Shown here: positions 1 to 51,712 of the stretch, in pieces | Numbering within the stretch: the stretch's first letter is position 1 | How the letters are laid out: each line of letters begins with the position of its first letter | Origin: Chitinophagales bacterium | GTDB taxonomy: Bacteria; Bacteroidota; Bacteroidia; Chitinophagales; UBA2359 | Direction of reading: 5' to 3' | DNA length: 52,035 nucleotides | NCBI GenBank assembly: GCA_049613665.1 | Contig: JBMZCV010000010.1 | Coordinates: 1-52,035, forward strand | Notes under the pieces: generated by a model | What the model was told of the DNA's origin: nothing | Seen by the model: the letters and a program-made list of their open reading frames with translations, nothing else | Databases searched by the model: none | Translations under genes and position numbers: made by a program

Positions 1-47
1 CTTTGGGGCATCATAACATTCAGCTTTTTAACTAACCTGACGGCTAT

Positions 48-102
48 GGTGTTATCACCAACAACTAAAAAAGTTTGCTAAAAAGTTGTTGGTGATAACA
101 CC
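48..102. repeat. Perfect 19-bp inverted repeat (GGTGTTATCACCAACAACT ... AGTTGTTGGTGATAACACC) with a 17-nt spacer.
   Basis: Read directly. The arms lie at 48-66 and 84-102 and are exact reverse complements. The site is downstream of the minus-strand fadN-like gene. Confidence 0.6.
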
Positions 103-318
103 AACAACGGCAAGAGTCTCGTTTTTTTATAATAAATAGTATTTTCTAAATGCTTGACATTATTTTAATATCCAAGCTATTTTCGCATTTTTTTATAAAA
201 TTTATTTCAGAAAAAAGAAAAATAAGTGCTGGTGAAAACACGCAACAATATTAAAAGTATTGAGTTTTATTTTTGTAAAAGCTCAATAGTGGCGTTTTTT
301 ATAAACGCCTTTCTTTTA

Positions 319-2772
319 TTAATTTCTCAATGGTTTTCCTGTTTTCAAAATGCTTTGAATACGCTCTAAAGATTTTCTTTGCGTCAGCAATTCTAAAAAG
401 CCTTTTCTTTCCAAATCTAATAGATATTGTTCAGATACTTTTGCAGGAGCAGAAAGGTCGCTACCGCAAATTACATGAGCTACTTTTTGAGCAATATGTT
501 CGTCATGGTCAGAAATATAACCTGCTACTTTCATTGAAGAAACACCTGTGTAGAATGTACCTAAAGCAGCACGTCCCAATACTAAAATGTCTTTGCGTTC
601 GACAGGTTGCGTGTAGCCAGCCGCTTGCAATTCTAACACTGCTTTTTTCGCTTCTGCCAACACTCTATCGCCATTTATGACAATGCTATCTGTTCCTTTT
701 CTGAAATATCCCATTTCCATCGCTTCGTGTGCCGAAGTCGCTACTTTTGCAGTTGCAATATTCATCAAAGCATCTTGCAAAGCTGGTACTTGCACATCAC
801 CTGTATAATAACCATCAGAAGCACGCAAAGCCAATTCTTTTGTGCCACCACCTGCTGGCAATACACCTGCACCTACTTCTACCAAACCGATATATGTTTC
901 GGCAGCCGCAACTACTTTGTCGGCGTGTAAACAAATTTCGCAGCCTCCACCCAAAGTCAAGCCACGAGGAGCTGCAACAACAGGAATAGAAGAATAACGA
1001 ACTCGCATAGTTGTTTTTTGGAACGCACGAATAGCGAAATCTAATTCGTCGTATTCTTGTTCGATAGCCAACATGAAAATCATCGCTAAGTTTGCACCAG
1101 CCGAGAAATTTGGAGCATCGCTTCCGATAACCAAACCTTTCCAGCCATCACGCTCTGCAATGTCAATTGCTGCATTGATACCTTGCAATACTTCGCTACC
1201 AATAGCATTCATTTTTGTGTGGAACTCTAAGCATAAAACGCCATCGCCAATATCGTGCAAAGTTGTACCGCTATTTTGGTAAACAGGCTTTTGGTCACGA
1301 TAATTGTCTAATTTGATGTAGTCTTCTGTGCCTGCAATATCAGCATATGCTTTTGTAGCAGGGTTGTATGCCTGACGCTTGCCATCTGCTATTTTGTAGA
1401 AAGAATCGCAACCAGCTTCTAGCATATCATATACCCATTGAGCCGCTTTGTTGTCACTTTCTTCCATCGCTTTCACAGTTTTGGCTACGCCCAATGCGTC
1501 CCAATACTCAAACGGGCCAAGTTCCCAACCGAAACCTGCACGCAAAGCATCATCTACTTTATATACTTCGTCAGAAATTTCTGGAATGCGATTGCTCACA
1601 TACTGAAATGTCAAATTGCCTACTCTATTCAAGAAGTTTGCCCCTTTGTCGCCTGCTGAATGCAATGTTTTTAGACGTTTTTGAATATTGTCAATTGGCT
1701 TTGCTGCCGCAATACTCGCCAAACGTGGTTTTGCTTTTGGACGATATTCGAAAGTTTCTAAATCAAGCGTTAAAATTTGGCGTTTGCCTTGTGCATTTTT
1801 CGTTTTTTTGTAGAAACCTTGCTTTGTTTTATCGCCAAACCAACCATTTTCTAGCATTTTATTTACATAATCTGGCAATTTGAAATACTCACGCATTTCA
1901 TCATCTTTGCAATTGTCATAAATGCCTTTTGCTACTTTTACCATCGTATCTAAACCTACGACATCTGTTGTGCGGAAAGTTGCTGATTTTGGACGGCCAG
2001 TAATTGGGCCTGTCAAAGCATCAATTTCTTCAATAGTCATGTTCATTTTTTCCATGATATTGAAAATAGCCATCACTGAAAAAACACCAATTCTATTTGC
2101 GATAAAAGCAGGTGTGTCTTTACACAAAACAGTCGTTTTACCTAAATAAAGGTCGCCATATTTCATGAAAAAATCTACGACTTCTGGAGAAGTAGCAGGC
2201 GAAGGAATTACCTCAAACAACTTTAGATAACGTGGCGGATTGAAAAAGTGCGTACCGCAAAAATGCTGTTTGAAATCTTCGCTACGACCATCAATCAACA
2301 TATGAATCGGAATACCAGAAGTATTCGAAGTGATGAGAGAACCAGCTTTGCGATATTTTTCGACATTGTTGAAAACGATTTTTTTGATGTCGAGACGCTC
2401 AATAACCGCTTCAATAATCCAATCGCAATCTTTCAACAAATCCATGTTGTCGTCGAAATTGCCTGTTGTGATAAGCGATGCAGCACTTTTGCTATACAAA
2501 GGCGATGGCTTCGATTTGACAGCCGTTTTCAAAGCATCATTTACGAGGCGATTTCTTACGGCAGGGTGTTCCAAAGTTAAGCCTTTCGCTTCTTCTTTTG
2601 GAGTAAGGCTTCTAGGCACGATGTCGAGCAAAACGGTTTCGAGACCGATATTTGCAAAGTGACAAGCGATGCGAGACCCCATAACGCCAGAGCCAAGTAC
2701 GGCTACTTTTTTAATTTTTCGTTTAGCCGCTTCTACAACAGTAGAATCAGATTGAGCTATAATAGCTTCCAT
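319..2772 (-). CDS. Bifunctional 3-hydroxyacyl-CoA dehydrogenase / enoyl-CoA hydratase (FadN/FadB-like beta-oxidation enzyme).
   Basis: 817-aa ORF. The N-terminal NAD-binding Rossmann motif VAVLGSGVMGSRIA matches the 3HCDH family. The C-terminal crotonase-fold region (GSDAPNFSAGANL, GGGCEICLHAD) fits enoyl-CoA hydratase. Confidence 0.85.
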   Translation of the reverse strand: MEAIIAQSDSTVVEAAKRKIKKVAVLGSGVMGSRIACHFANIGLETVLLDIVPRSLTPKEEAKGLTLEHPAVRNRLVNDALKTAVKSKPSPLYSKSAASLITTGNFDDNMDLLKDCDWIIEAVIERLDIKKIVFNNVEKYRKAGSLITSNTSGIPIHMLIDGRSEDFKQHFCGTHFFNPPRYLKLFEVIPSPATSPEVVDFFMKYGDLYLGKTTVLCKDTPAFIANRIGVFSVMAIFNIMEKMNMTIEEIDALTGPITGRPKSATFRTTDVVGLDTMVKVAKGIYDNCKDDEMREYFKLPDYVNKMLENGWFGDKTKQGFYKKTKNAQGKRQILTLDLETFEYRPKAKPRLASIAAAKPIDNIQKRLKTLHSAGDKGANFLNRVGNLTFQYVSNRIPEISDEVYKVDDALRAGFGWELGPFEYWDALGVAKTVKAMEESDNKAAQWVYDMLEAGCDSFYKIADGKRQAYNPATKAYADIAGTEDYIKLDNYRDQKPVYQNSGTTLHDIGDGVLCLEFHTKMNAIGSEVLQGINAAIDIAERDGWKGLVIGSDAPNFSAGANLAMIFMLAIEQEYDELDFAIRAFQKTTMRVRYSSIPVVAAPRGLTLGGGCEICLHADKVVAAAETYIGLVEVGAGVLPAGGGTKELALRASDGYYTGDVQVPALQDALMNIATAKVATSAHEAMEMGYFRKGTDSIVINGDRVLAEAKKAVLELQAAGYTQPVERKDILVLGRAALGTFYTGVSSMKVAGYISDHDEHIAQKVAHVICGSDLSAPAKVSEQYLLDLERKGFLELLTQRKSLERIQSILKTGKPLRN

Positions 2773-2891
2773 ACGGTTATATTTATTTTTATTATTATGA
2801 ATTAAATTTTATAATATTATAAATTGTCATCTTTTTGACAAAACTATTTTTTTATAATAAAGTAGTTTTATATAATGTAACGTTTATTTTT

Positions 2892-2907
2892 TACCAAACG
2901 TTTGGTA
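2892..2907. promoter_or_regulatory. Perfect 16-bp palindrome TACCAAACGTTTGGTA. Candidate TetR operator in the fadN-like promoter region.
   Basis: Exact palindrome about 120 bp upstream of the fadN-like start (2772). An identical copy with the same extended context (ttaccaaacgtttggtagataaa) lies at 3626-3641. Confidence 0.6.
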
Positions 2908-3030
2908 GATAAAAATTCTTTTTAGATATGTTATTTTTTGCAACAGCAATATGAAGAAAACATTAATTTTAGAAAAAAGTTTATTCTCTATATTAAAAAC
3001 CTTTACATTTGCCCTTGTTATAAAATGCTG

Positions 3031-3591
3031 TTAATCTAGTAATTGAATGATATTTTGATGGGTTTGTTTTAAAAAGCTAGTGTCATTGAAGAGTCGCATC
3101 ATCATCACAGAGCCTTCAATTTTGGCTACGCAATTTTTGGCTAATGCTTTTGCTTCAGCTATTTCATATTTTTCTTGAAAGATATGTGTCATAGCATCTA
3201 TCCAATCTTGAAAAAATAATTGCACCATTTTTGAAAATTCAGGCATATTTCCAGCCATTTCCAAAGCTAAATTGCCCATTAAGCAGCCGCTATCGGTCGT
3301 AAAAAATTGATTTTCGGCAATATTGGCCAAAAGTTGCAGTTTTTGCTTGCTACCAAGTTGTTTGTCGTAGGCATGAATAAAGATTTCGGTTTTGTAGTAT
3401 TCATGTAGATAATTGATAACTGCTTTTAGTATATCTTTTTTGCCACCTTTGAAGTAATGATATAAACTACCTTTTTTGAGGCCGCAAGCCGTTGCGATAT
3501 CTTCCATAGAAGTATCAGCATAGCCTTTGCTTCGAAATACTTTTAGTGATTGTCGAATTAAGAAATTCTCGCTGACTTTCTGTTTAGGCAT
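3031..3591 (-). CDS. TetR/AcrR-family transcriptional regulator.
   Basis: 186-aa ORF with an N-terminal helix-turn-helix (SMEDIATACGLKKGSLYHYF) typical of the TetR family. It is adjacent to and co-oriented with the beta-oxidation gene. Confidence 0.8.
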   Translation of the reverse strand: MPKQKVSENFLIRQSLKVFRSKGYADTSMEDIATACGLKKGSLYHYFKGGKKDILKAVINYLHEYYKTEIFIHAYDKQLGSKQKLQLLANIAENQFFTTDSGCLMGNLALEMAGNMPEFSKMVQLFFQDWIDAMTHIFQEKYEIAEAKALAKNCVAKIEGSVMMMRLFNDTSFLKQTHQNIIQLLD

Positions 3592-3625
3592 AAAGGTATT
3601 TATTTAATTTAGTGTTTTGCAAATT

Positions 3626-3641
3626 TACCAAACGTTTGGTA
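3626..3641. promoter_or_regulatory. Second copy of the palindrome TACCAAACGTTTGGTA. Candidate autoregulatory operator.
   Basis: Exact copy about 35 bp upstream of the TetR start codon (3591). It also lies in the divergent promoter region shared with the large surface-protein gene. Confidence 0.6.
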
Positions 3642-3822
3642 GATAAACAAATTTATTTTTGTAGTTTTATTTTTTTTCTTAAAAAATCGGTAAGAAAATG
3701 ATTTTAATATATTATTTTTTTTGTTTTTTTGTTTGTATTCAAGCTGTATTAATACTTTTTTTGTATTTTTGTCATAAATTTATTTCATATCAATATCTAT
3801 TTTTAAACTAAATTATAGTAAA

Positions 3823-8509: not shown

Positions 8510-9685
8510 CTAATATGTAGCTAAACTTTCGTCAATTTCGTTGGCATAAGCCAAAACACCACCTTTCAAATTATACAAATTATCGAAACCAAAAGCCTCC
8601 TCTAGCTTCCGAATAGCATCGGCACTACGCTTGCCACTTCTACAATGAATGACTACCTTTTTGTTTCGAGCAACTTTTTCAAAAGCCTTTTCAATCTGTC
8701 CCAAAGGTATGAGTTCGCCAGCCAAATTCACAATTTCATATTCATAAGGCTCTCGCACATCTATCAATTGAAAATCTAATTTTTCGTCTCCCCAAGTTTT
8801 CAGCGTTTGCACATCTATCTCTTTCACTTCTTTCGGTTTTTCCGTTTCAAAACCCAAATCGACATTGCAAAATTCTTCATAATCAATCAAATTCGTTTGC
8901 GTTGGGTTTTCGCCAGTTAGCGGATTAAATTTGCTTGGTTTCACTTTCAAAGTGCGAGTATGAAAAGTAGCCGCATCAAACAAAAATAAACGCCCAGAAA
9001 GTGGCTCGCCTACGCCAGAAATAATTTTAATCACTTCCAAAGCTTGCAAACTACCAATGATGCCAGGAAGTACGCCAATCACACCACCTTCTGCACAATT
9101 TGGCACTAACTCGGCAGGTGGCGGTTCTGGAAATAAATCACGATAATTTGGCCCTAAATTTCCTGCTGTATCTCGCCAATTGAAAACAGAAACCTGCCCT
9201 TCAAAGCGAAAAATAGATGCATAAACATTTGGCTTCCCTAGCAACACACTCGCATCATTGACCAAATATCGTGTCGCAAAATTGTCTGTGCCATCTGCCA
9301 CTACATCATAATTTTTCAAAATATCAAGAGCATTTTCCGAAGTCAATTTTGTATTATGAACCGTAATTTCGATATAAGGATTCAACGCCAACAATCGTTT
9401 TTTGGCTGTTTCAGCCTTAGATTTGCCCACATCTTCCACCGTAAATAAGACTTGACGCTGCAAATTGCTGTTATCTACCACATCAAAATCTACAATTCCG
9501 ATATGTCCAACGCCTGCCGCAGCCAAATATAACAAGACAGGACTTCCCAAGCCGCCAGAGCCAACAACTAGCACTTTTGCTGCTTTCAGCTTTCGTTGTC
9601 CTTCAATATTAAACTCTGGAATGATGATATGGCGACTATAACGTGCGATTTCTTCGTTTGAAAATTTTATTTTGTTATCTGACAT
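8510..9685 (-). CDS. moeZ: MoeZ/MoeB-like E1 adenylyltransferase with a C-terminal rhodanese domain (sulfur-carrier-protein activating enzyme).
   Basis: The ThiF/MoeB nucleotide-binding motif LVVGSGGLGSPVLLYLAAAGVG and the rhodanese active-site motif HCRSGKRS are both present. The start is called at MSDNKIKF (9685), because the longer ORF runs into a repeat element. Confidence 0.85.
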   Translation of the reverse strand: MSDNKIKFSNEEIARYSRHIIIPEFNIEGQRKLKAAKVLVVGSGGLGSPVLLYLAAAGVGHIGIVDFDVVDNSNLQRQVLFTVEDVGKSKAETAKKRLLALNPYIEITVHNTKLTSENALDILKNYDVVADGTDNFATRYLVNDASVLLGKPNVYASIFRFEGQVSVFNWRDTAGNLGPNYRDLFPEPPPAELVPNCAEGGVIGVLPGIIGSLQALEVIKIISGVGEPLSGRLFLFDAATFHTRTLKVKPSKFNPLTGENPTQTNLIDYEEFCNVDLGFETEKPKEVKEIDVQTLKTWGDEKLDFQLIDVREPYEYEIVNLAGELIPLGQIEKAFEKVARNKKVVIHCRSGKRSADAIRKLEEAFGFDNLYNLKGGVLAYANEIDESLATY

Positions 9686-9705
9686 TTTTTTGTTTTTATA
9701 AATGA

Positions 9706-9885
9706 CAATAGTTCTGACATTTTTTATAACAATTTTCAGTTTCATAAAAAAACTTCTTTTGACAAGTGAAACATACTATTTTCAGTTCAAAAGGCCATTA
9801 AATTTGCAAATATTGGCCACCTTAACCTAAAAAAAATAGTACGTTTAAACTTTTGATAAAAAAATGTATAAATGTCCGAACTGTT
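9706..9885 (-). mobile_element. MITE-like repeat element, copy A, about 180 bp with terminal inverted repeats, inserted between cysO and moeZ.
   Basis: Reverse-complement match to the elements at 12479-12659 and 51959-52035. The termini are CAATAGTTCTGACATTTT at 9706 and AAATGTCCGAACTGTTG at 9869-9885. Confidence 0.75.
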
Positions 9886-9917
9886 GAAATAAGAAGTTAA
9901 AAATTATTTTTTTAATG

Positions 9918-10196
9918 CTAAAAAGAGCCGCCTGCAATAGCTGGCACAATGCTAACAACTGTTTCGTTAGAAATAGCAGTTTCACTACCATCAAGGCTAT
10001 TAATGTCTTCATCGCCAACATAAATGCGGATAAAAGAGCGAATTTGCTGGTTTTTGTCCAAAATATGAGGTGCTAATTTGGGATTTGCTGCTACCAAATC
10101 GGCAATAGCTGTTTGCACATTTTGGCTATCTACATCAAAAGTTGATTGATTGCCTGTAAATTTTCTTAACGGAGTTGGAATGATAATTTTTGCCAT
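9918..10196 (-). CDS. cysO: CysO-like MoaD/ThiS-family sulfur carrier protein with a C-terminal GG-SF extension.
   Basis: 92-aa ORF. IPTPLRKFTGNQ...IRIYVGDEDI...VVSIVPAIAGG resembles CysO/MoaD2. The ORF ends GGSF-stop (stop codon TAG at 9918-9920). Confidence 0.8.
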   Translation of the reverse strand: MAKIIIPTPLRKFTGNQSTFDVDSQNVQTAIADLVAANPKLAPHILDKNQQIRSFIRIYVGDEDINSLDGSETAISNETVVSIVPAIAGGSF

Positions 10197-10247
10197 GATT
10201 TGTATATTTTTTAAGTTAATTTTTAAATGTATTTTTGCTTTTCAAGC

Positions 10248-10664
10248 TTATAAAACGCTTTCTTCATCAAATATTTTCGTTTCTTCATTGAGCCGCCACG
10301 AGCGTAAAATATCGACTTTTCCATTCATAACTGAAATAATGATGTATGAAAAAAACGGCATTGCTTGCTTCAAATCATGCACCGACGGAATGGCGAGATG
10401 ATTTGGATGTGTGTGATAAATGCCCAACAATTCAATTTGATTTGATAATGCGTATTGCTCTGCTTTCATATAGTCGAAAGGCGAAATTTCAAAACGCCTT
10501 CTTTGGTCGCCTTTTTTGCTATTTTTCGCAGGCCGTGCCAACTCGACATATCGTTTTCCGCCTGTTATTTTTCCATACAAAAAACCGCAACATTCGTTCG
10601 GAAAACTCGCTTCGCTTTGCTCAAACATCACTTTCTTTGAATTTTCATTAATGCTTATTTCCAT
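10248..10664 (-). CDS. mec: JAMM/MPN+ metalloprotease (Mec+/QbsD-like) that processes the sulfur carrier protein.
   Basis: 138-aa ORF with the JAMM motif HTHPNHLAIPSVHD (H-x-H-x7-S-x2-D) and an upstream Glu. It lies between cysM and cysO. Confidence 0.85.
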   Translation of the reverse strand: MEISINENSKKVMFEQSEASFPNECCGFLYGKITGGKRYVELARPAKNSKKGDQRRRFEISPFDYMKAEQYALSNQIELLGIYHTHPNHLAIPSVHDLKQAMPFFSYIIISVMNGKVDILRSWRLNEETKIFDEESVL

Positions 10665-10725
10665 TTTAAAATATTTTTTTATCTACAAACGTTTCGCATC
10701 TATGATGCTTTAAAATGTTTCTTTT

Positions 10726-11667
10726 TTACAAAAAAATATGCTTTAATACTTCGCCATATTTCTCTGCATTGTCTGCGAAAATCGTGACAATAGTGCCTTC
10801 TTTTATCTGTTCTGCAACTTGAATCGCACCAACCAAATTTGCGGCTGCCGAAGGACTCAATAAAATACCTTCTGTTTGTGCAACATGTCGAATCATGTCG
10901 TAAGCTTCCATCGTATCGACTTCCAAATTTTGATGTGCAATGCTGCCGTCATAAATTCGAGGCACTTTCGCTGTTTCGAGATGTTTCCAACCTTCCATAC
11001 CGTGCAAAGCCGAATTTGGCTGAAACGAAATCAGTTGAATATTAGGGTTCAACAATTGCAATTTTCGGCTTGTGCCAACAAAAGTTCCTGTTGTGCCGAT
11101 TCCTGTTGCGAAATGCGTAATTTTTTGATTCGTTTGCTCAAAAATTTCTACTGCTGTTGTCTCGAAATGTGCTTTCCAATTGTTTTCGTTAGCATATTGG
11201 TCGGCATAAAAATACTTGTTTGGATAAGCTGCTGCCAACTCTTTAGCTTTTGCTTGCGAGCCATCTGTGCCATCGAAACGAGAAGTATAAATGATTTCTA
11301 CGCCAAGAGCTTTGAGAATTTGCTTGCGTTCTGCCGAAGCATTTTCTGGCAAACACAAACTTACTTTTATGCCCAAAGCCGCTCCGATAGACGCATAAGC
11401 AATGCCTGTATTGCCACTTGTAGCGTCTAAAAGCGTTATGTTTTCATGTATAAATCCTTGATTAACAGCATTTTTTATGATGTTGAAAGCTGGCCGAGCT
11501 TTTACACTTCCACCAAGTTGTTGCCATTCTAGCTTGGCAAAAATTTGTATATTCTTTTTTTGAAAAGCTCTTTTTATTGGAAACAAAGGCGTATTTCCGA
11601 TAAAAGATTGTATGTTTTTGAGTCTTTCAAGAAGTTTTTGGCTGACTTGTCGTTTTACTTGATTCAT
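10726..11667 (-). CDS. cysM: PLP-dependent cysteine synthase of the CysM type (uses a thiocarboxylated carrier and O-phosphoserine/O-acetylserine).
   Basis: 313-aa ORF with the fold-II PLP motifs GGSVKARPAFNII and TSGNTGIAYA. It is the first gene of the cysM-mec-cysO-moeZ block. Confidence 0.85.
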   Translation of the reverse strand: MNQVKRQVSQKLLERLKNIQSFIGNTPLFPIKRAFQKKNIQIFAKLEWQQLGGSVKARPAFNIIKNAVNQGFIHENITLLDATSGNTGIAYASIGAALGIKVSLCLPENASAERKQILKALGVEIIYTSRFDGTDGSQAKAKELAAAYPNKYFYADQYANENNWKAHFETTAVEIFEQTNQKITHFATGIGTTGTFVGTSRKLQLLNPNIQLISFQPNSALHGMEGWKHLETAKVPRIYDGSIAHQNLEVDTMEAYDMIRHVAQTEGILLSPSAAANLVGAIQVAEQIKEGTIVTIFADNAEKYGEVLKHIFL

Positions 11668-15072: not shown

Positions 15073-17073
15073 ATGACAGCTACACAAATATTTTATCAAA
15101 ACATTGCCCAAATTAGAGATTTGTTTCATAAATATGGTCGTTTTGATGATGCTAATGCCAAACTAGACGAATTGTCGAAATACTTATGTATTTATGTTTA
15201 TGAAAAACAAAGTCCAAAGTTAGCAAAATATAATATAGCAAGCTTACTTATTGAGTTTGAAAAAAACAATTCTTTTTCACTTGTTTCAAAAATTCAAGAA
15301 TTGTTTCATCAAGTTATACTTATTGATGAATTAAAAGATGCCAATGGACATTCCATATTTAAAAATTCGGCAAAGCTAAATATTGCAGCCGATGACCATC
15401 AGTTTGCTTATGCTTTATTAAAATTAGTTTGCAATGCTGTTGATGGCATTATTGAAGGCGAAAGAAACTTTGATGTTCTCAATGAATGTTTTGGACACTT
15501 TGTGAGAGCTAATTTTAGAAATCACATTGAAGATGCCCAATATATGACTCCCAATGAAGTAGTCGAATTTATTTGCGATATAGCACTTCACGATATAAAT
15601 GTCACAGATGTAGATTTAAAAGAATTTATAGTTTTAGACCCTTGTTGTGGTGTTGGCTCGTTTATTTCTACATTTTATCAAAAAAACTTAACTTCAAAAA
15701 AGGTTAAAAATCTAACAGTCATTGGCCAAGATAAAGTAGAAAGAATGGCCAGATTATCGAAAATAAACCTTTTTCTTGCCAACAATAAAAAGCATATTAT
15801 TTCAAACAACAATTCACTTTCAGGAAAGTCTGCACTTGATAATTTGCATGGAAAAGTTGATTTAATACTAACCAATCCTCCTTTTGGAGCAAAGTTTACG
15901 AGCGATGAATTAAAAGTTGATGCAAAAAAAAATTATCCTCATTTATTTGATATTATAGTAAGAAAAAACAAAACGTTTAACTCAGAAGTCTTATTCGTTG
16001 ATAAATGCCTTTCTTTGCTAAAACCAAATGGTAAATTGTTGGCAGTAGTGCCAGATAGCGTTATTTCCTCTAAGGGCCTTAATGAAATGTTAAGACGTAG
16101 ATTAGCGTATAAAAATAATATTCACATTAAAGCTATTATAGAATTGCCAAATGTCACTTTCGCACAAGCAGGCACACGCACCAAAACAAGTATTCTTTAT
16201 ATTGAGAAAGGAACAAGCAAAATTTCTAATACTTTTATTGCGAAAAGCGAAAGTATTGGTTTTGAAGTTAGTACCAAAAAAGGTGCAACCATAAAACATG
16301 AGCAAGGCGAAAATGATTTGTTAAGTATTTTTAAAGCTTATGTTTCGCAAATGGATTTTAAGAATGGTTTGGATATTCAAAAAGTCATTCAAAAACAGCC
16401 TTCTTGTGTTGCTATTCCTTCCGAATGGTTAAAAGAACAAACATGGACTCCCAACCATTATAAAGCATCAAAATTTACTTCTTTTGATAATATGAAAATT
16501 CCAGCAAAAGAAGTAAACTTTGTAAAGTTGTCAGATATTGCATTTTTCGATACCAAAAAGAGAAAGAAAGAAATTTTGGCCAATGATGCAAAATGTATTA
16601 GCGTACTTCATATAAACGATGAAAATTTAAACTATGAAGATTTTCTAAATTATGCTCCCAAATATATGGGCATTCCTTGTCAAAATGGCGATTTGCTCTT
16701 TTCAAAAATAAACCCTAGAATTGTTAGAATATTTGTTATACCTAATTTACCTTATGCTTTAAGCTGTTCTTCCGAATTTGAAGTACTCAATTCTTCAACC
16801 GAACTGAGCAATTATGCTCTAAAAATGTTGTTATTGTTGCCTGCTGTTCAAATTCAAATTAAAGCTTCTACTTCTGGCACATCGTCTTCTCACAATAGAA
16901 TAAAAACTAACGAATTATCTAATCTTATTATTCCAATGCCCAAAAAAGGTAGCAACTATTATACATCTTTTATTGAAAAAGCAAAAAAATACGAAGAAGA
17001 CAGTATCGCCTACAACAATTTAATTTTTACTATGTATAAAACTAAAATGGAAGTTTTCGACATGGTTGAATAA
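15073..17073 (+). CDS. Gamma-class N6-adenine DNA methyltransferase with its own target-recognition region (Type II-like restriction-modification methylase).
   Basis: 666-aa ORF. Motif X (AQYMTPNEVVEFI), motif I (VLDPCCGVGSFI) and motif IV (LTNPPFGAKF) are present, with a C-terminal region of about 300 aa. The local sequence is A+T-rich. Confidence 0.8.
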   Translation: MTATQIFYQNIAQIRDLFHKYGRFDDANAKLDELSKYLCIYVYEKQSPKLAKYNIASLLIEFEKNNSFSLVSKIQELFHQVILIDELKDANGHSIFKNSAKLNIAADDHQFAYALLKLVCNAVDGIIEGERNFDVLNECFGHFVRANFRNHIEDAQYMTPNEVVEFICDIALHDINVTDVDLKEFIVLDPCCGVGSFISTFYQKNLTSKKVKNLTVIGQDKVERMARLSKINLFLANNKKHIISNNNSLSGKSALDNLHGKVDLILTNPPFGAKFTSDELKVDAKKNYPHLFDIIVRKNKTFNSEVLFVDKCLSLLKPNGKLLAVVPDSVISSKGLNEMLRRRLAYKNNIHIKAIIELPNVTFAQAGTRTKTSILYIEKGTSKISNTFIAKSESIGFEVSTKKGATIKHEQGENDLLSIFKAYVSQMDFKNGLDIQKVIQKQPSCVAIPSEWLKEQTWTPNHYKASKFTSFDNMKIPAKEVNFVKLSDIAFFDTKKRKKEILANDAKCISVLHINDENLNYEDFLNYAPKYMGIPCQNGDLLFSKINPRIVRIFVIPNLPYALSCSSEFEVLNSSTELSNYALKMLLLLPAVQIQIKASTSGTSSSHNRIKTNELSNLIIPMPKKGSNYYTSFIEKAKKYEEDSIAYNNLIFTMYKTKMEVFDMVE

Positions 17074-17076
17074 AAT

Positions 17077-17718
17077 TTAAACTGCCTCCAAACACATTCC
17101 CCTTGTCAAGACACTTTTTTTGAAATATACAATGTCATACGACAATTTATTGCTATTCCAAATAGCTTCTAAAAAAAGCGGATAGTGCAAGTTTCCACAA
17201 CTATTTCTAAATTCATTAGAGTTTTTACCTCTTGGCGGATGCAACTGAAAGTTATTGCTAGTAATAATGCCTTCATCTCTTTTTTTATACCAAACAGCAC
17301 ACATTTTGCGAAAAAAAGGGTCTTTAGGTGGCCGAACAAGCCAAACTCTGCATCTTTCGCTTTTATGTTTAGGTTCATTATCCCACAAAACAAAAATAAG
17401 TTTTGGCATAGTATCTAAATAAGATAAATTACCAGAATATTCGCTTTTTGTACCTGCTTTAATAACGCCATTAAAGCGTGGTGTATCAATTGCTCCCCAT
17501 GTATTAGCACCTTTTACATCTGAGCCATCAAGTAAATCAGGGCCTTTTTTTCGCCCATATCCTTCTATTCCTGTTAGCAAACTAGCTAATATTTGAGACC
17601 AAGCTCTTGTATCAGTTGGCGTAGGCTGTTTTGTTGCTTTTGCATAAGGTTCGACAGCAAAAAATGATTGATGGTGTAAATTAAGAAATGTAAGCACTTC
17701 CCTCAAATCTGTATTCAT
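17077..17718 (-). CDS. Candidate cognate restriction endonuclease of unknown family.
   Basis: 213-aa ORF convergent with the methylase and separated from it by a 3-nt gap. It has no recognisable family; GPDLLDGSDVKG is a weak PD-(D/E)xK-like pattern. The call rests on position. Confidence 0.4.
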   Translation of the reverse strand: MNTDLREVLTFLNLHHQSFFAVEPYAKATKQPTPTDTRAWSQILASLLTGIEGYGRKKGPDLLDGSDVKGANTWGAIDTPRFNGVIKAGTKSEYSGNLSYLDTMPKLIFVLWDNEPKHKSERCRVWLVRPPKDPFFRKMCAVWYKKRDEGIITSNNFQLHPPRGKNSNEFRNSCGNLHYPLFLEAIWNSNKLSYDIVYFKKSVLTRGMCLEAV

Positions 17719-20746: not shown

Positions 20747-21928
20747 ATGGATTTCGATAGCTGGCAAAAAAAACAAGGCAATACGAATGTTAAAGCAAAA
20801 GAGCAAAAACCAAAAGCAAAGCAAAAGTCGTGGAAACGAGAGTTGTTAGAGTTGGCTATTATTGCATTTATTATCGTTCCGCTCATCAATATTTTCGTGT
20901 TGCAATCTTATGCTATTCCGACTTCTTCTATGGAAAATGAAATGTTGGTAGGCGACAAACTTTTTGTTAGCAAATTTCATTATGGTGCAAGAGTGCCGAT
21001 GACTCCTATTGCATTTCCGTATGTGCACAATACTTTGTTTGGCTCGCCATCTTATACCGAAGCTGTCAAATTGCCATATAAAAGACTGCCTGGCATTGCT
21101 CCTTTGAAGCGAAACAACATCGTGGTATTCAATTATCCAGGCGATGTGAAATATGATATTCCTGTCGATAAGCGAGAAAATTATGTGAAGCGTTGTGTGG
21201 CAGTAGCTGGCGATGAAATTCAAGTGATTGAAGGCGAAGTTTTTATAAATGGCGAAAAAGGCGAAAAGCTGAGAAATCTACAACATGCCTACCAAGTTAT
21301 GACGACAAATGAACCTTTCAATCCGAAAAAAATAAAAGAATTGGGCGTTTCAGAAGTCTATCGTTTTCCGAAACGTGGCAATGAACCTGCTATTCCAATT
21401 TCAAAACTCGGTGGTGTGAAAGCTTCTGCTTATACTTTTATGCTGACCGAAAAAGCAGCAGCAGCTTTAGAAAAAATGAGCAATGTGCAAGTTGTCAAAA
21501 GAATGATACAGCCTGTCGAAGCAGCAGATGTATATATTTTTCCTCGTGACGAGCGTTTTGCGTGGAATGTCGATAATTTTGGCCCTGTTTATTTGCCAAA
21601 AGCTGGCGAAAGTATCAAATTGGACTCTACCAACTTTGCGATTTACGAATATCATATTCGCAACTACGAAGGCGAAAAAGATATTACTTTCAAAAATAAT
21701 CAAGCTTATCTCAACGGAAAAGCCATTGAAAGTTATACTTTTAAACAAAATTACTACTTTATGATGGGCGACAACCGACACAATTCGGCCGACTCTCGCT
21801 ATTGGGGTTTTGTGCCAGAAGACCATATCGTGGGCAAACCAATTTTCGTGTGGCTTTCTACCGAAAAAGATGCCACAGGTTGGTCTGACTGGGTGCGTTG
21901 GGGAAAAAGTATGAGAACTGTTCAATAG
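20747..21928 (+). CDS. lepB: Signal peptidase I, paralog 1.
   Basis: Catalytic Ser motif SSMENEMLVGDKLFVSK and the Lys box [24 protein letters not shown]. Confidence 0.85.
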   Translation: MDFDSWQKKQGNTNVKAKEQKPKAKQKSWKRELLELAIIAFIIVPLINIFVLQSYAIPTSSMENEMLVGDKLFVSKFHYGARVPMTPIAFPYVHNTLFGSPSYTEAVKLPYKRLPGIAPLKRNNIVVFNYPGDVKYDIPVDKRENYVKRCVAVAGDEIQVIEGEVFINGEKGEKLRNLQHAYQVMTTNEPFNPKKIKELGVSEVYRFPKRGNEPAIPISKLGGVKASAYTFMLTEKAAAALEKMSNVQVVKRMIQPVEAADVYIFPRDERFAWNVDNFGPVYLPKAGESIKLDSTNFAIYEYHIRNYEGEKDITFKNNQAYLNGKAIESYTFKQNYYFMMGDNRHNSADSRYWGFVPEDHIVGKPIFVWLSTEKDATGWSDWVRWGKSMRTVQ

Positions 21929-22406
21929 TTTTTAATTTTTAGTGATGAGTTTTTAGTTCAATGGTTCTGACAATTTTTATGACATCATTTTATATAATTG
22001 TTAATTATAACAAGTGTTTTTTTATCAAAAAAACACCATTTTTCAATAAAACCTGTCAAATGGAGTATCGAATTTAAGCATAACAAGAATATTGTTTTTC
22101 GCTCCAAAAAGTGCCAAATAAACTATAAAACAGGTATGAGTTTTCAACTCGTGCTGGTACACTTTTTTGTTGATTTTTTTTAAATATTAAGACTTATTAT
22201 TTTGTCATTTCTTACAAAAAATAGGGCGAATGTTTATAAAAAAACACCATGAAATTCGACAGCCCACCTGTCAGATTTTCCCAAAAAGGGATAAATATCC
22301 GAACCTTTATTAGTTAAAAAAAGAATTAAAAACATTTTTAAAATAACAAAAAAGCTTATAAATTTAACAGAGTTAATTTATAAGCTTTTCTATATATAAT
22401 AATACA

Positions 22407-23639
22407 ATGACAACTCCTTCTGATTCGAGTGTTGAACCTAACGAAAAACCGATTAAAAAGAAGCCAAAACCGCTTTGGCGTGAATGGTTTGATGCCTTGT
22501 TTTTCGCTATTATTGCGGCCACCATCATCCGCACTTTTTTCATTGAAGCCTACACTATTCCGACTTCTTCGATGGAAAAAACTATGCTTGTAGGCGATTA
22601 TCTTTTTGTTAGCAAGCTAAATTATGGTGCAAGAGTGCCAATGACACCGCTTTCGTTTCCTTTCGCACATCATACGATGCCTTTTACGGGTGGCAAATCA
22701 TATAGCGAAGCTTTGAAATTGCCTTATTGGAGACTGCCTGGTTTTCAAGATATAAAACGCAACGATATTATTGTTTTCAATTATCCGATGGAAAGTATGC
22801 GGCCTGTCGATAAGCGAGAAAACTATATCAAACGTTGTGTTGGGTTGCCAAGTGATACGCTACAAATCGTGAATCGGCAGTTGCTCATCAACAACGATAA
22901 ATCGGAAGATATGGGCAATATGCAGTTTAATTATTTTGTGCGAACAAACGGCAATCACATCAATAAAAACGATTTATTTAAGCTAAATATCACAGAAGGT
23001 GGTTTGAACGAAGCCACCGATAGTTTCAATTTGTATAAATATGCTTTGACGCTCGAAAGTCTGGAAAAGATGTCGAAATTTAAGAATGTCGTCAAAATAG
23101 ATACCGTTATGCGTGACAAAGGTATTTATAGCGAAGAGGTGTTTCCGCTTTATCCAAAATTGATGCAAATGGCTCATGCCGAACATCATAATCAAGATAC
23201 GATAACTAAAGTTTCTAAGCAAATTATGAAAAGTTTTGCGTGGAATATCGACAACTTTGGCCCTTTGGTAGTGCCAGCGAAAGGCGACACGGTAGAACTA
23301 AACTTAGAAAATATTTATTTGTATGAACGCATTATTAGGGTGCATGAACACAATGATTTGCAGTTTAACAATGACCAAATACGCATCAATGGCAAGGTGG
23401 CGACTTCTTATGTTTTCAAGATGAATTATTATTTTATGATGGGCGACAACCGACACAATTCGGCGGACTCTCGCTATTGGGGTTTTGTGCCAGAAGACCA
23501 TATCGTGGGCAAAGGCTGGCTAGTGTGGCTCTCGCTAAAACCGATAAATCTCAATCGCAAGGCTGGCTTTTTTAGCAAATATGTGTTTAAAGGGAAAGAA
23601 GTGCGTTGGGATAGGTTTTTTAAGTGGATACATGAGTAA
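22407..23639 (+). CDS. lepB: Signal peptidase I, paralog 2.
   Basis: [17 protein letters not shown] and [24 protein letters not shown]. The second motif is almost nucleotide-identical to paralog 1 over 79 nt. Confidence 0.85.
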
Positions 23640-51295: not shown

Positions 51296-51712
51296 CTAGG
51301 CTTCTTCTTTTGTTTCATTATTCTCTGCTTCTGCTGCACTATTTCCTCCTCGCAATTCTTTCATCAATTCTTCCATTTTGATAAAATCTTTTGCTTCTTG
51401 AATAGTAGGAATAAGCGTCAAAACGCTATCTAGCTGCGAAATTTTAACCAAACGTTTCACATTGTCAGTCACTTCTGTAATCACGAGCAAGCCGCCTACA
51501 TTTTGGCACAAACGATTTGCGACCAAAATAGCACTCAAACCAGATGAATCTACAAAACTAACAGCACCTAAATCGAGTATAATATTTTTGACACCTTCAT
51601 TGTTCAAAATTGCCATTGATGTTTTCAAATCTGGTGCAACTAATGTATTAAGTTTTTGTTCCAACACACTCAATACTGTATATGTTTCTTTTTTATCTAA
51701 TGATATTTTCAT
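51296..51712 (-). CDS. STAS-domain anti-sigma-factor antagonist (SpoIIAA-like).
   Basis: 138-aa ORF. ILDLGAVSFVDSSGLSAILVANR is a typical STAS motif with a phosphorylatable Ser. Confidence 0.7.
   Translation of the reverse strand: MKISLDKKETYTVLSVLEQKLNTLVAPDLKTSMAILNNEGVKNIILDLGAVSFVDSSGLSAILVANRLCQNVGGLLVITEVTDNVKRLVKISQLDSVLTLIPTIQEAKDFIKMEELMKELRGGNSAAEAENNETKEEA

What the first reader, a model, noticed from the sequence alone, without database searches (positions are those of the whole stretch)
2892..3641. Two identical perfect 16-bp palindromes (TACCAAACGTTTGGTA) bracket the TetR gene, suggesting a FadR-type regulon operator.
Exact copies, each with 23 bp of shared context, lie about 120 bp upstream of the fadN-like gene and about 35 bp upstream of the TetR start. 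The arrangement mirrors TetR-family fatty-acid regulators such as Bacillus FadR/YsiA, which repress beta-oxidation genes and themselves. The second copy is also in the divergent promoter of the large adhesin-like gene.
Basis: partly seen in the sequence, partly recalled or inferred. Interest (0 to 1): 0.55.

Follow-up and report, generated by a model that had tools for sequence, protein, structure and literature searches.

The report
TetR operator pair controlling fatty-acid breakdown
The two identical 16-bp palindromes are almost certainly the binding sites of the TetR-family repressor encoded between them, which shuts off its own gene and the neighbouring fatty-acid beta-oxidation gene; this is a well-conserved but ordinary kind of bacterial switch.

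Summary
Exact TACCAAACGTTTGGTA lies at 2892-2907 and 3626-3641, within 24 bp of shared sequence. About 2e-5 exact copies are expected by chance in this window. The copies bracket a minus-strand TetR gene (3031-3591). One is 34 nt upstream of the TetR start and the other 119 nt upstream of a FadN-type gene (319-2772).

Comparative evidence is strong. Orthologous loci with 46-92% TetR identity keep a site before the TetR gene and another before fadN. This holds when another gene intervenes, and when TetR and fadN sit on different contigs of one MAG. The same 16-mer also precedes fadN-thiolase-acyl-CoA dehydrogenase operons and a lone acyl-CoA dehydrogenase. The sites overlap Bacteroidota-type core promoter elements, as expected for repression.

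The regulator is not a Bacillus FadR/YsiA or PsrA homologue. Its ligand domain is LmrA/YxaF-like. Its DNA-reading head and its operator match Thermus PfmR (TACCGACCGNTNGGTN), and true PfmR-family proteins in other phyla use the identical 16-mer beside fad genes.

The acyl-CoA effector is inferred, not shown. Control of the divergent adhesin-like gene is not supported by conservation. Verdict: a real new member of a known kind, of modest interest.

The parts
3626..3641 (.). Operator O1 (TetR-proximal): perfect 16-bp palindrome TACCAAACGTTTGGTA, 34 nt upstream of the TetR start codon
   Evidence: Exact match. A site at the equivalent position is present upstream of TetR orthologues in L002, L005, L007, L009, L012, L033, L034, L037, L045, L062, L075, L133, L137 and L139.
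2892..2907 (.). Operator O2 (fadN-proximal): identical palindrome in the 258-nt TetR-fadN gap, 119 nt upstream of the fadN start codon
   Evidence: Exact match. A second site lies between TetR and fadN in L002, L005, L062 and L137. In L012 it lies directly before fadN, after an inserted amidase gene. Sites also precede fadN where no TetR gene is seen next to it in the fetched stretch, in L040, L054, L108, L136, L138 and L140.
3031..3591 (-). TetR-family repressor gene (186 aa). It has a PfmR-like HTH head and an LmrA/YxaF-like (TetR_C_13_2) ligand domain.
   Evidence: Pfam. NCBIfam: no equivalog model passed its cutoff. AlphaFold2 model has pLDDT 91.3 and a TetR fold, with nearest solved structures 3on4, 3bru and 1sgm. 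The head is 46% identical to a PfmR-family protein over residues 11-60 only.
319..2772 (-). FadN-type bifunctional 3-hydroxyacyl-CoA dehydrogenase / enoyl-CoA hydratase gene (817 aa), the inferred regulated target
   Evidence: Pfam 3HCDH_N, 3HCDH and ECH_1. NCBIfam Staph_FadB scores 600 bits, below its 999-bit cutoff. Synteny with TetR is conserved in L002, L037, L045, L062 and L137.
3620..3627 (-). Candidate -7 promoter box TAAATTTG (Bacteroidota TAnnTTTG type) for the TetR gene. Its TA is the last two bases of O1. A TTTG lies 20 nt upstream at 3648-3651.
   Evidence: The same overlap of the operator's terminal TA with a TAnnTTTG box occurs in L005, L007, L009, L062, L075 and L133. The promoter consensus comes from my own knowledge. 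No transcription start site was mapped.
2867..2874 (-). Weak candidate -7 box TATATAAA, 17 nt downstream of O2 in the fadN sense. In this geometry the operator's own TTTG would serve as the -33 element.
   Evidence: A TA-initiated element lies 15-17 nt after the operator at other fadN/ACAD sites: TATTTTTG in L053, TAATTTAG in L054, TACATTAG in L138, TACTTTCG in L012. This is inference only. A better consensus match, TAGTTTTG, lies 45 nt after O2 at about 2839-2846.

Best explanation
The two palindromes are operators for a homodimer of the TetR-family repressor encoded between them. O1 sits inside the core promoter of the TetR gene, so the bound repressor blocks RNA polymerase and the gene is negatively autoregulated. 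O2 sits in front of the FadN-type beta-oxidation gene. Bound repressor there blocks a local promoter whose -33 element is inside the operator, and may also block read-through from the TetR promoter, since no terminator separates the two genes. When a lipid-derived ligand binds the C-terminal domain, the repressor releases DNA and both genes are expressed. That ligand is most plausibly a long- or medium-chain acyl-CoA or a free fatty acid. In related genomes the same operator also controls thiolase and acyl-CoA dehydrogenase genes. What is shown: sequence, conservation, co-localisation with TetR and fad genes, and promoter overlap. What is inferred: physical binding, repression, and the identity of the effector.
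For: The sites exist and are far beyond chance. Phylogenetic footprint: orthologues with 46-92% TetR identity keep a variant of the site upstream of TetR and another upstream of fadN. In L012/L013 the second site stays with fadN although a penicillin-amidase gene sits between TetR and fadN. Evidence for action in trans: in one Chitinophagaceae MAG, TetR (L034) and fadN (L108) lie on different contigs and both carry the exact 16-mer. Regulon evidence: the exact site lies upstream of a fadN-thiolase-ACAD operon (L040) and a 601-aa ACAD (L053). All 8 metagenome hits to the extended 21-mer are upstream of TetR (3), upstream of fadN (4), or in a fragment that resembles the fadN-flanking region of L140 (1). 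By my count, 33 of the genome hits are in non-Bacteroidales Bacteroidota. Of these, 20 lie next to a TetR-family gene of this clade or a beta-oxidation gene, and nearly all of the other 13 fall inside long ORFs. Within each genome the two sites tend to carry the same variant: AAAC in both L002 copies, AACCGACC in both L012 copies, TACC in both window copies. Promoter overlap is seen in two recurrent geometries in Bacteroidota, and in high-GC phyla the site lies immediately after a TTGAC...TACAGT promoter. Precedent: Thermus PfmR is an autoregulated TetR repressor of acyl-CoA-metabolism genes with operator TACCGACCGNTNGGTN and nanomolar binding (PMC7022988). The window site matches 11 of its 13 specified positions. 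PfmR-family proteins (3VPR at E 2e-39) use the identical 16-mer beside fadN/ACAD genes. The DNA-reading head is nearly invariant across all these proteins.
Against: No binding, expression or transcription-start data exist for this protein or any Bacteroidota orthologue. The ligand domain is LmrA/YxaF/AcuR-like and its closest solved relatives have no known ligand, so the acyl-CoA effector rests on gene context only. The fadN-proximal promoter in the window is poorly defined: the -7 candidate at the conserved position is weak, and the better box lies 45 nt downstream of O2, where the operator would not overlap the promoter. Some orthologues are not next to fad genes (L007, L009). L010 has no recognisable site and L007 only a degenerate one, with 5 mismatches. 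Flavobacteriaceae paralogues use the same operator for a different operon, so the operator sequence alone does not specify the pathway. In Prevotellaceae the same 16-mer precedes a cysteine-synthase-like gene with no TetR nearby, so another regulator can use it. The rest of the source genome could not be scanned.
Confidence: 0.85

Rival explanations
1. The palindromes are bound by a different, unlinked transcription factor, for example a LacI/PurR-type or LysR-type protein. PurR boxes share the CAAACGTTTG core. On this reading the adjacency to the TetR gene is incidental.
For: The CAAACGTTTG core appears in the literature mainly for PurR and MalR boxes. In 20 Prevotellaceae genomes the exact 16-mer sits upstream of a cysteine-synthase-like gene with no adjacent TetR, so some other protein probably reads it there.
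Against: The site travels with TetR-family genes that share one conserved DNA-reading head across at least three protein subgroups and several phyla. It usually occurs both before and after the TetR gene. A characterised TetR protein, PfmR, binds essentially this sequence. No LacI or LysR gene is a recurrent neighbour of these loci.
Confidence: 0.05
2. The two copies are a recently duplicated or gene-converted promoter fragment, or a small repeat element, with no operator function. The palindromy would be incidental or would serve as an RNA hairpin or terminator downstream of the TetR gene.
For: Identity extends 8 bp beyond the palindrome, to 24 bp. O2 lies downstream of the TetR stop codon, where a terminator could sit. 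The palindrome can form a 6-8 bp RNA stem.
Against: Flanks beyond the 24 bp are unrelated, and there are no further copies in 52 kb. The hairpin is weak: -5.7 kcal/mol with z -1.3 for O2 in the sense strand, followed by A's rather than U's. The terminator scan finds nothing between the TetR gene and fadN. The core is conserved across phyla at promoter positions, which neither a neutral duplication nor a terminator explains. In the 92%-identical relative the outer bases of the second copy differ while the core is kept, the pattern expected for a protein-binding site.
Confidence: 0.03
3. The TetR protein does bind these operators, but it senses something other than fatty acyl-CoA, for example an electrophile, a flavonoid-like xenobiotic or acryloyl-CoA, as relatives in the LmrA/YxaF, NemR and AcuR group do. 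On this reading fadN is controlled as part of a stress or detoxification response.
For: The C-terminal domain is TetR_C_13_2 (LmrA/YxaF-like). The best NCBIfam hit is AcuR, at 72 bits against a 247-bit cutoff. JGI annotations name homologues 'repressor of nem operon'. The closest structures are 3on4, 3bru and YxaF rather than FadR, FasR or PfmR. Paralogues with the same operator control a DUF1348/hydrolase operon.
Against: Within the clade containing the window protein, the conserved targets are fadN, thiolase and acyl-CoA dehydrogenase. Local repressors of catabolic operons usually sense the pathway substrate or its CoA ester, which is general knowledge about Bacillus FadR, Thermus FadR, PaaR and PsrA. 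All matches to AcuR and NemR fall far below their family cutoffs.
Confidence: 0.2

Closest known systems
PfmR (TTHB023) of Thermus thermophilus HB8: TetR-family autorepressor of phenylacetate / fatty-acid metabolism genes (PDB 3VPR)
   Same: The operators are almost the same. The PfmR consensus is TACCGACCGNTNGGTN (Agari et al. 2012, as quoted in PMC7022988). The window site TACCAAACGTTTGGTA matches 11 of its 13 specified positions, and the L012 orthologue variant AACCGACCGTTTGGTA matches 12 of 13. Both are autoregulated, and both have more than one site at the regulator's own locus. PfmR targets include acyl-CoA dehydrogenases, a thiolase and an acyl-CoA ligase. The DNA-reading heads are similar: 46% identity and 78% positives over residues 11-60 against a PfmR-family protein. 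Full-length PfmR-family proteins in high-GC bacteria and Symbiobacterium carry the identical 16-mer next to fadN/ACAD genes.
   Different: There is no detectable similarity outside the head. The C-terminal domain is TetR_C_13_2 here and TetR_C_24 in the PfmR family. The overall fold match to 3VPR has a TM-score of only about 0.70, against 0.88 for 3on4. The phylum and promoter type also differ: Bacteroidota -33/-7 elements here, sigma-70 -35/-10 elements there.
FadR/YsiA of Bacillus subtilis and FadR of Thermus thermophilus: TetR-family acyl-CoA-responsive repressors of beta-oxidation
   Same: The regulatory logic matches: a TetR-family repressor, autoregulated, with palindromic operators in the promoters of fad genes (including fadN in Bacillus), released by long-chain acyl-CoA. 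The description of FadR is from my own knowledge. PDB entries 3whb and 3whc show Bacillus FadR with stearoyl-CoA.
   Different: It is not an orthologue. It scores 24.4 bits against a 200-bit cutoff on the NCBIfam FadR-Bacillus model. It has no TetR_C_4 (YsiA-like) domain. The TM-score to 3whb is 0.67. The operators differ: Thermus FadR recognises TTRNACYNRGTNYAA, from my own recollection of PMC5597230, which I did not open.
PsrA of Pseudomonas: TetR-family fatty-acid-responsive regulator of fadBA5
   Same: It is a fatty-acid-sensing TetR repressor that autoregulates by occluding its own promoter. Its half-sites are CAAAC/GTTTG, in the operator C/GAAAC-N2-4-GTTTG/C (PMC13104628).
   Different: In PsrA operators the half-sites are separated by 2-4 bp, whereas here they abut. 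The window protein scores 23 bits against a 300-bit cutoff on the PsrA model.
PaaR (TTHA0973) of Thermus thermophilus: TetR-family phenylacetyl-CoA-responsive repressor
   Same: Its preferred site is AACnAACGTTnGTT, which shares the central AACGTT and the 14-bp symmetric layout. Several orthologue sites here begin AAACAAACGTT, which contains one PaaR half-site (AACAAACG). The effector is an acyl-CoA type molecule.
   Different: The outer positions differ: GGT/ACC here against GTT/AAC. The targets are paa genes, not fad genes. Protein similarity was not tested.

Membership tests
TetR family of transcriptional regulators (Pfam PF00440 head plus all-helical ligand domain) | N-terminal TetR_N helix-turn-helix domain above the Pfam gathering score | tested here: met
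   TetR_N scores 52.1 bits against a cutoff of 24.
TetR family of transcriptional regulators (Pfam PF00440 head plus all-helical ligand domain) | All-alpha two-domain fold of about nine helices | tested here: met
   The AlphaFold2 model has pLDDT 91.3 and nine helices. The top 50 Foldseek hits are all TetR-family structures.
TetR family of transcriptional regulators (Pfam PF00440 head plus all-helical ligand domain) | Binds a palindromic operator as a dimer, and is released by a ligand | not testable with these tools
   Only indirect evidence is available: a conserved 14-16 bp palindrome at the promoters of the regulator and its targets.
LmrA/YxaF-like TetR subgroup (Pfam TetR_C_13_2 / TetR_C_13) | C-terminal domain matches PF21993/PF16925 above the gathering score | tested here: met
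   TetR_C_13_2 scores 46 bits and TetR_C_13 scores 32.9 bits, both against a cutoff of 27. The closest structures are 3on4, 3bru, 3dpj and 1sgm (YxaF).
Bacillus-type FadR/YsiA | Passes the NCBIfam equivalog model NF053878 (cutoff 200 bits) | tested here: not met
   24.4 bits, aligned over residues 11-141.
Bacillus-type FadR/YsiA | YsiA-like C-terminal domain (Pfam TetR_C_4) | tested here: not met
   No TetR_C_4 hit at E<=0.001. Foldseek TM-score to 3whb is 0.67, rank 21.
Bacillus-type FadR/YsiA | Released from DNA by long-chain acyl-CoA | not testable with these tools
   Needs EMSA or ITC with purified protein.
PsrA | Passes the NCBIfam equivalog model NF053516 (cutoff 300 bits) | tested here: not met
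   23 bits.
PsrA | Operator C/GAAAC-N2-4-GTTTG/C | tested here: not met
   The half-sites CAAAC and GTTTG are present but abut, with N0 spacing.
PfmR family (Thermus TTHB023, PDB 3VPR) | Operator matching TACCGACCGNTNGGTN | tested here: met
   The window site matches 11 of 13 specified positions. The orthologue variant in L012 matches 12 of 13.
PfmR family (Thermus TTHB023, PDB 3VPR) | Full-length sequence similarity to PfmR, including the TetR_C_24-type ligand domain | tested here: not met
   3VPR matches residues 10-57 only, at E 4.8e-7. BLASTP against the PfmR-family protein L119 aligns residues 11-60 only. No TetR_C_24 hit. By contrast, L119 matches 3VPR over its full length at E 2.2e-39.
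PfmR family (Thermus TTHB023, PDB 3VPR) | Autoregulation and control of acyl-CoA metabolism genes | tested here: inconclusive
   The site positions fit (O1 in the TetR promoter, sites before fadN, thiolase and ACAD genes), but there are no expression data.

The most novel reading that the evidence does not exclude
One DNA-reading head and its 16-bp operator (the PfmR-type box ACCnAmCGTTnGGT) form an ancient, portable module. It has been joined to unrelated ligand-sensing domains in different phyla: TetR_C_24 in the Thermus, Symbiobacterium and high-GC lineages, and LmrA/YxaF-like TetR_C_13_2 in Bacteroidota. Throughout, it has kept both the exact operator sequence and beta-oxidation genes as the target pathway. 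The Bacteroidota fad repressor would then be a domain-swapped descendant that senses lipid status through a different pocket.
Probability: 0.3. Interest if true: 0.45.

Novelty: new member of a known kind. Interest (0 to 1): 0.3.

Why it matters
As far as I could find, no regulator of fatty-acid beta-oxidation has been described in Bacteroidota. No held paper contains the 12-mer core CCAAACGTTTGG, and no relevant paper turned up in searches combining TetR, beta-oxidation or fatty acid degradation, and Bacteroidetes or Flavobacterium. This locus and its relatives give a clean, testable regulator-operator-target triple for Chitinophagales/Saprospiraceae-type bacteria. It has a defined 14-16 bp box that can be used to predict fad regulons in MAGs. 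It also shows how the operator is threaded into the unusual -33/-7 promoters of this phylum. The identical box is read by proteins with unrelated ligand domains in other phyla, which makes it a small but tidy case for studying modular evolution of TetR regulators. None of this overturns current understanding. It extends a well-known regulatory design to a new lineage.

Tried and rejected
(1) I searched the window for further or weaker sites. None were found at <=3 mismatches. The four hits at 4 mismatches include a half-site, AACCAAACGTTTCACA, at 51446, which lies inside an ORF. All were rejected as chance.

(2) I looked for other fad genes in the window that might share the site. Among the 25 long ORFs scanned with Pfam, covering about 300-36200, there are none. 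ORFs beyond about 36 kb were not annotated.

(3) I tried to enumerate the regulon in the source genome. This was not possible. The only other contig carrying this exact TetR protein is a 3.6-kb Logan contig that ends near the window's left edge.

(4) I tried to read the primary PfmR paper (PMC3415517), but it is not held. The consensus was taken from PMC7022988, which quotes it.

(5) An Rfam scan of the whole window gave no RNA family hits.

(6) The terminator/hairpin reading of O2 was rejected.

(7) The repeat/mobile-element reading was rejected: only 24 bp are shared.

(8) The sigma-70 promoter scan is uninformative for this phylum and barely exceeds the shuffled controls, 19 sites against 12.8 +/- 3.5.

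(9) The structure prediction and fold search were meant to identify the effector by homology. The nearest structures are uncharacterised, so no ligand could be inferred.

(10) Control of the adhesin-like gene was tested through neighbour conservation and promoter position. It is not supported, though not excluded.
Full report
OBSERVATION. The sequence TACCAAACGTTTGGTA occurs exactly twice in the 52-kb window, at 2892-2907 and 3626-3641. No other match exists even with three mismatches. From the window's base composition (34.5% G+C), 1.9e-5 exact copies are expected. Identity extends to 24 bp, TTTACCAAACGTTTGGTAGATAAA, at 2890-2913 and 3624-3647. Beyond that the flanks are unrelated.

Both neighbouring genes are on the minus strand. 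One is a 186-aa TetR-family gene (3031-3591; TetR_N plus TetR_C_13_2). The other is an 817-aa gene (319-2772) with the 3-hydroxyacyl-CoA dehydrogenase domains first and an enoyl-CoA hydratase domain second, which is the FadN/Staphylococcus-FadB arrangement. One copy lies 34 nt upstream of the TetR start codon. The other lies in the 258-nt TetR-fadN gap, 119 nt upstream of the fadN start codon.

CONSERVATION. The TetR protein has a well-populated set of relatives in Bacteroidota; the few that carry a source name are labelled Chitinophagales, Saprospiraceae or Sphingobacteriales. I fetched loci encoding relatives at graded identity and scanned them.
- L002-4 (61% identity; TetR, fadN, two small ORFs, thiolase) has AAACAAACGTTTGGTA upstream of TetR and again upstream of fadN.
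- L005 (69%) has AAACAAACGTTTGGTA and AACCAAACGTTTGGTA at the same two places.
- L012/13 (46%) has AACCGACCGTTTGGTA upstream of TetR and again 38 nt upstream of fadN, although a penicillin-amidase gene lies between them. There fadN heads a fadN-thiolase-acyl-CoA dehydrogenase operon.
- L009 has a recognisable site and L007 a more degenerate one before the TetR gene. In both, the TetR is not next to fad genes.
- L010 has no site.

The chance of a match with <=3 mismatches in a 200-bp promoter is about 1e-3 (derived), so this recurrence is not accidental. Within each genome the two copies tend to carry the same variant, as expected when few sites co-evolve with one protein.

REGULON TEST. I scanned one genome per species of GTDB for the exact 16-mer. 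I classified every site by tblastn and by clustering of the flanking ORFs.
- Sixteen sites lie directly upstream of TetR-family genes that cluster with the window protein. L096 shows the same context but was missed by the ORF caller.
- Three sites lie upstream of fadN: L040 (heading a fadN-thiolase-ACAD operon), L054 and L108.
- One site lies upstream of a 601-aa acyl-CoA dehydrogenase (L053).
- L034 and L108 are two contigs of the same Chitinophagaceae MAG. The TetR gene is on one and fadN on the other, and both carry the exact site. This is the arrangement expected of a diffusible regulator.
- By my count, 33 hits are in non-Bacteroidales Bacteroidota. Twenty of these are intergenic and next to a TetR gene of this clade or a beta-oxidation gene. 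Nearly all of the other 13 fall inside long ORFs.

A second scan, of metagenome contigs with the 21-mer that includes the asymmetric flank, gave eight hits. Three are upstream of TetR orthologues with 89-92% identity. Four are upstream of fadN. One is a short fragment that resembles the region flanking fadN in L140.

The "bracketing" layout recurs. L062 is the relative with the most similar fadN (76% identity) among the fetched loci that hold the whole gene. It has GACCAAACGTTTGGTT in its TetR-fadN gap. L137 (92% TetR identity) has AAACAAACGTTTGGTA there. L037 and L045 have a single site and a tight TetR-fadN operon. The perfect identity of the two window copies is therefore lineage-specific, while the core CAAACGTTTGGT is what is conserved.

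PROMOTER GEOMETRY. Read in the TetR sense, O1 is ...AAATTTGTTTATC-TACCAAACGTTTGGTA-AATTTGCA... The last TA of the palindrome begins TAAATTTG, a match to the Bacteroidota -7 consensus TAnnTTTG. A TTTG (the -33 consensus) lies 20 nt upstream. The promoter consensus is from my own knowledge.

The same overlap of the operator's terminal TA with a TAnnTTTG box is seen in L005, L007, L009, L062, L075 and L133. In a second recurrent geometry the operator's own TTTG lies 19-20 nt upstream of a TAnnTTTG box. This occurs at the Flavobacteriaceae TetR genes and in L033/34, L037, L045 and the ACAD gene of L053.

At fadN-proximal sites a TA-initiated element again lies 15-17 nt after the operator: TAATTTAG, TACATTAG, TACTTTCG, and in the window the weak TATATAAA. 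A better box, TAGTTTTG, lies 45 nt after O2. In high-GC bacteria the site follows a TTGAC...TACAGT promoter directly. In every geometry except the last-named fadN candidate, a bound dimer would occlude RNA polymerase.

TAnnTTTG occurs 2.2 times per kb in this AT-rich window. A single occurrence therefore proves little, and the argument rests on conservation of position. No terminator lies between the TetR gene and fadN, so O2 may also act as a roadblock to read-through.

WHAT THE REGULATOR IS AND IS NOT. Against NCBIfam it fails every equivalog model:
- Bacillus FadR: 24 bits against a cutoff of 200.
- PsrA: 23 bits against 300.
- AcuR (the best hit): 72 bits against 247.

Its C-terminal domain is LmrA/YxaF-like. 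A confident AlphaFold2 model (pLDDT 91.3) is closest to uncharacterised TetR structures: 3on4 (TM 0.88), 3bru, 3qbm, 3dpj and YxaF. Bacillus FadR (TM 0.67) and PfmR (TM 0.70) are more distant.

THE OPERATOR IS A PfmR-TYPE BOX. A literature search for the core string led to the Thermus REPSA papers. PaaR prefers AACnAACGTTnGTT (PMC6651687). PfmR (TTHB023) has the consensus TACCGACCGNTNGGTN, binds at nanomolar affinity, has two sites at its own promoter, and controls acyl-CoA dehydrogenase, thiolase and acyl-CoA ligase genes (PMC7022988). The window site matches 11 of the 13 specified PfmR positions, and the L012 variant matches 12.

The high-GC TetR proteins that carry the identical 16-mer beside fadN/ACAD genes (L017 Symbiobacterium, L085, L096, L119) are true PfmR-family proteins. 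L119 matches 3VPR over its full length at E 2e-39, and L119 and L017 both carry a TetR_C_24 domain. The window protein resembles them only in the head: 46% identity and 78% positives over residues 11-60, and nothing beyond.

An alignment of all these proteins shows a nearly invariant recognition region...TSMxDIAxAxGLxKGSLYHYF.... This accounts for the shared operator. Flavobacteriaceae paralogues (27-32% identity over the full length) use the same exact box. They also have a second site just downstream of the TetR gene, but they head a DUF1348/alpha-beta-hydrolase operon. The box therefore identifies the DNA-reading head, and the pathway is set by where the boxes sit.

MECHANISM. The best-supported reading is a classical TetR switch. 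A dimer on O1 represses the regulator's own promoter. A dimer on O2 represses fadN. A lipid-derived ligand releases both. The first two steps are inferred from strong comparative evidence plus the PfmR precedent (confidence about 0.85). The ligand rests on gene context alone, and I give acyl-CoA or fatty acid roughly even odds.

Three rivals were considered. A different unlinked factor is unlikely given the co-travelling TetR gene. A hairpin, terminator or neutral duplication is rejected. A non-lipid effector remains open, given the LmrA/YxaF/AcuR-like ligand domain.

THE ADHESIN-LIKE GENE. O1 lies 181 nt upstream of the divergent 1189-aa gene. That gene's best -7 box (3764-3771, 51 nt from its ATG) is about 120 bp from the operator. 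A second box at 3654-3661 is only 15 nt from the operator's TTTG, which is off the usual spacing. The same neighbour is present in the 89%-identical relative L133. In all other lineages the divergent gene is different: an ABC transporter, an acyltransferase, a radical-SAM gene, and MetK-like and ClpP-like genes. Co-regulation is therefore unsupported, though not excluded.

NOVELTY AND VERDICT. No held paper contains the core CCAAACGTTTGG. None describes a beta-oxidation regulator in Bacteroidota. The design is nonetheless entirely conventional, and its closest relative, PfmR, is characterised. I classify it as a new member of a known kind, of modest interest (0.3). The most novel reading still open is that the head-plus-operator module has been recombined with unrelated ligand domains across phyla while keeping both its box and its target pathway.

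Noticed in passing
L023, L031, L039, L052, L059, L080 and 14 other Prevotellaceae loci (e.g. L023:4718-4733): The exact 16-mer TACCAAACGTTTGGTA lies about 100-140 bp upstream of a conserved 315-aa cysteine-synthase-like (PALP) gene in 20 of the 119 genome hits. It sits about 60 nt upstream of a TAccTTTG -7 box and has no TetR gene nearby. It looks like an activator-position site for an unidentified, unlinked regulator.
   Followed up: partly
window 47-103: A 20-bp perfect inverted repeat (arms 47-66 and 84-103) forms an RNA hairpin of -35.5 kcal/mol (z -8.3). It lies about 215 nt downstream of the fadN stop codon, at the very edge of the window. The only other contig with this TetR gene (L001) also ends near here, so it may be a strong terminator or a repeat that breaks assemblies. 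Unlike relatives, this lineage shows no thiolase gene after fadN within the available sequence.
   Followed up: partly
L024, L025, L081, L109, L111 (e.g. L025:3079-4143): Flavobacteriaceae TetR paralogues (27-32% identity) carry the same exact operator 28 nt upstream of their start codon. L024 and L025 also have a second near-identical site just after the TetR gene. These paralogues head a DUF1348 (SnoaL-like) plus alpha/beta-hydrolase operon rather than fad genes.
   Followed up: partly
L110:4298-5816: In a Saprospiraceae MAG the exact site lies 63 nt upstream of a fatty-acid-hydroxylase-family gene, which is adjacent to a TetR paralogue (34% identity). A degenerate site, TAACGACCGTTTGGTA, lies upstream of that TetR gene.
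   Followed up: partly
window 15073-17718: A convergent pair made of an N6-adenine DNA methyltransferase (666 aa; N6_Mtase/Eco57I) and a MamI-type restriction endonuclease (213 aa). This is a likely type II restriction-modification system.
   Followed up: no
window 8510-11667: A cluster on one strand: a ThiF-rhodanese fusion (411 aa), a small 92-aa ORF, a JAB/Mov34 protease (138 aa) and a PALP enzyme (313 aa). It resembles a sulfur-carrier-protein (CysO/ThiS-type) cysteine biosynthesis module.
   Followed up: no
window 20747-23639: Two tandem paralogous S26 signal-peptidase genes (393 and 410 aa), each with a split Peptidase_S26 match.
   Followed up: no
L044 and L074 (Tenacibaculum sp. MAR_2009_124): The 16-mer occurs twice in this genome, each time inside an ORF of more than 2600 aa. 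L044 and L074 are two stretches about 40 kb apart on one contig. These are coding-sequence occurrences unrelated to regulation, and a reminder that about a third of the exact hits are intragenic chance matches.
   Followed up: no
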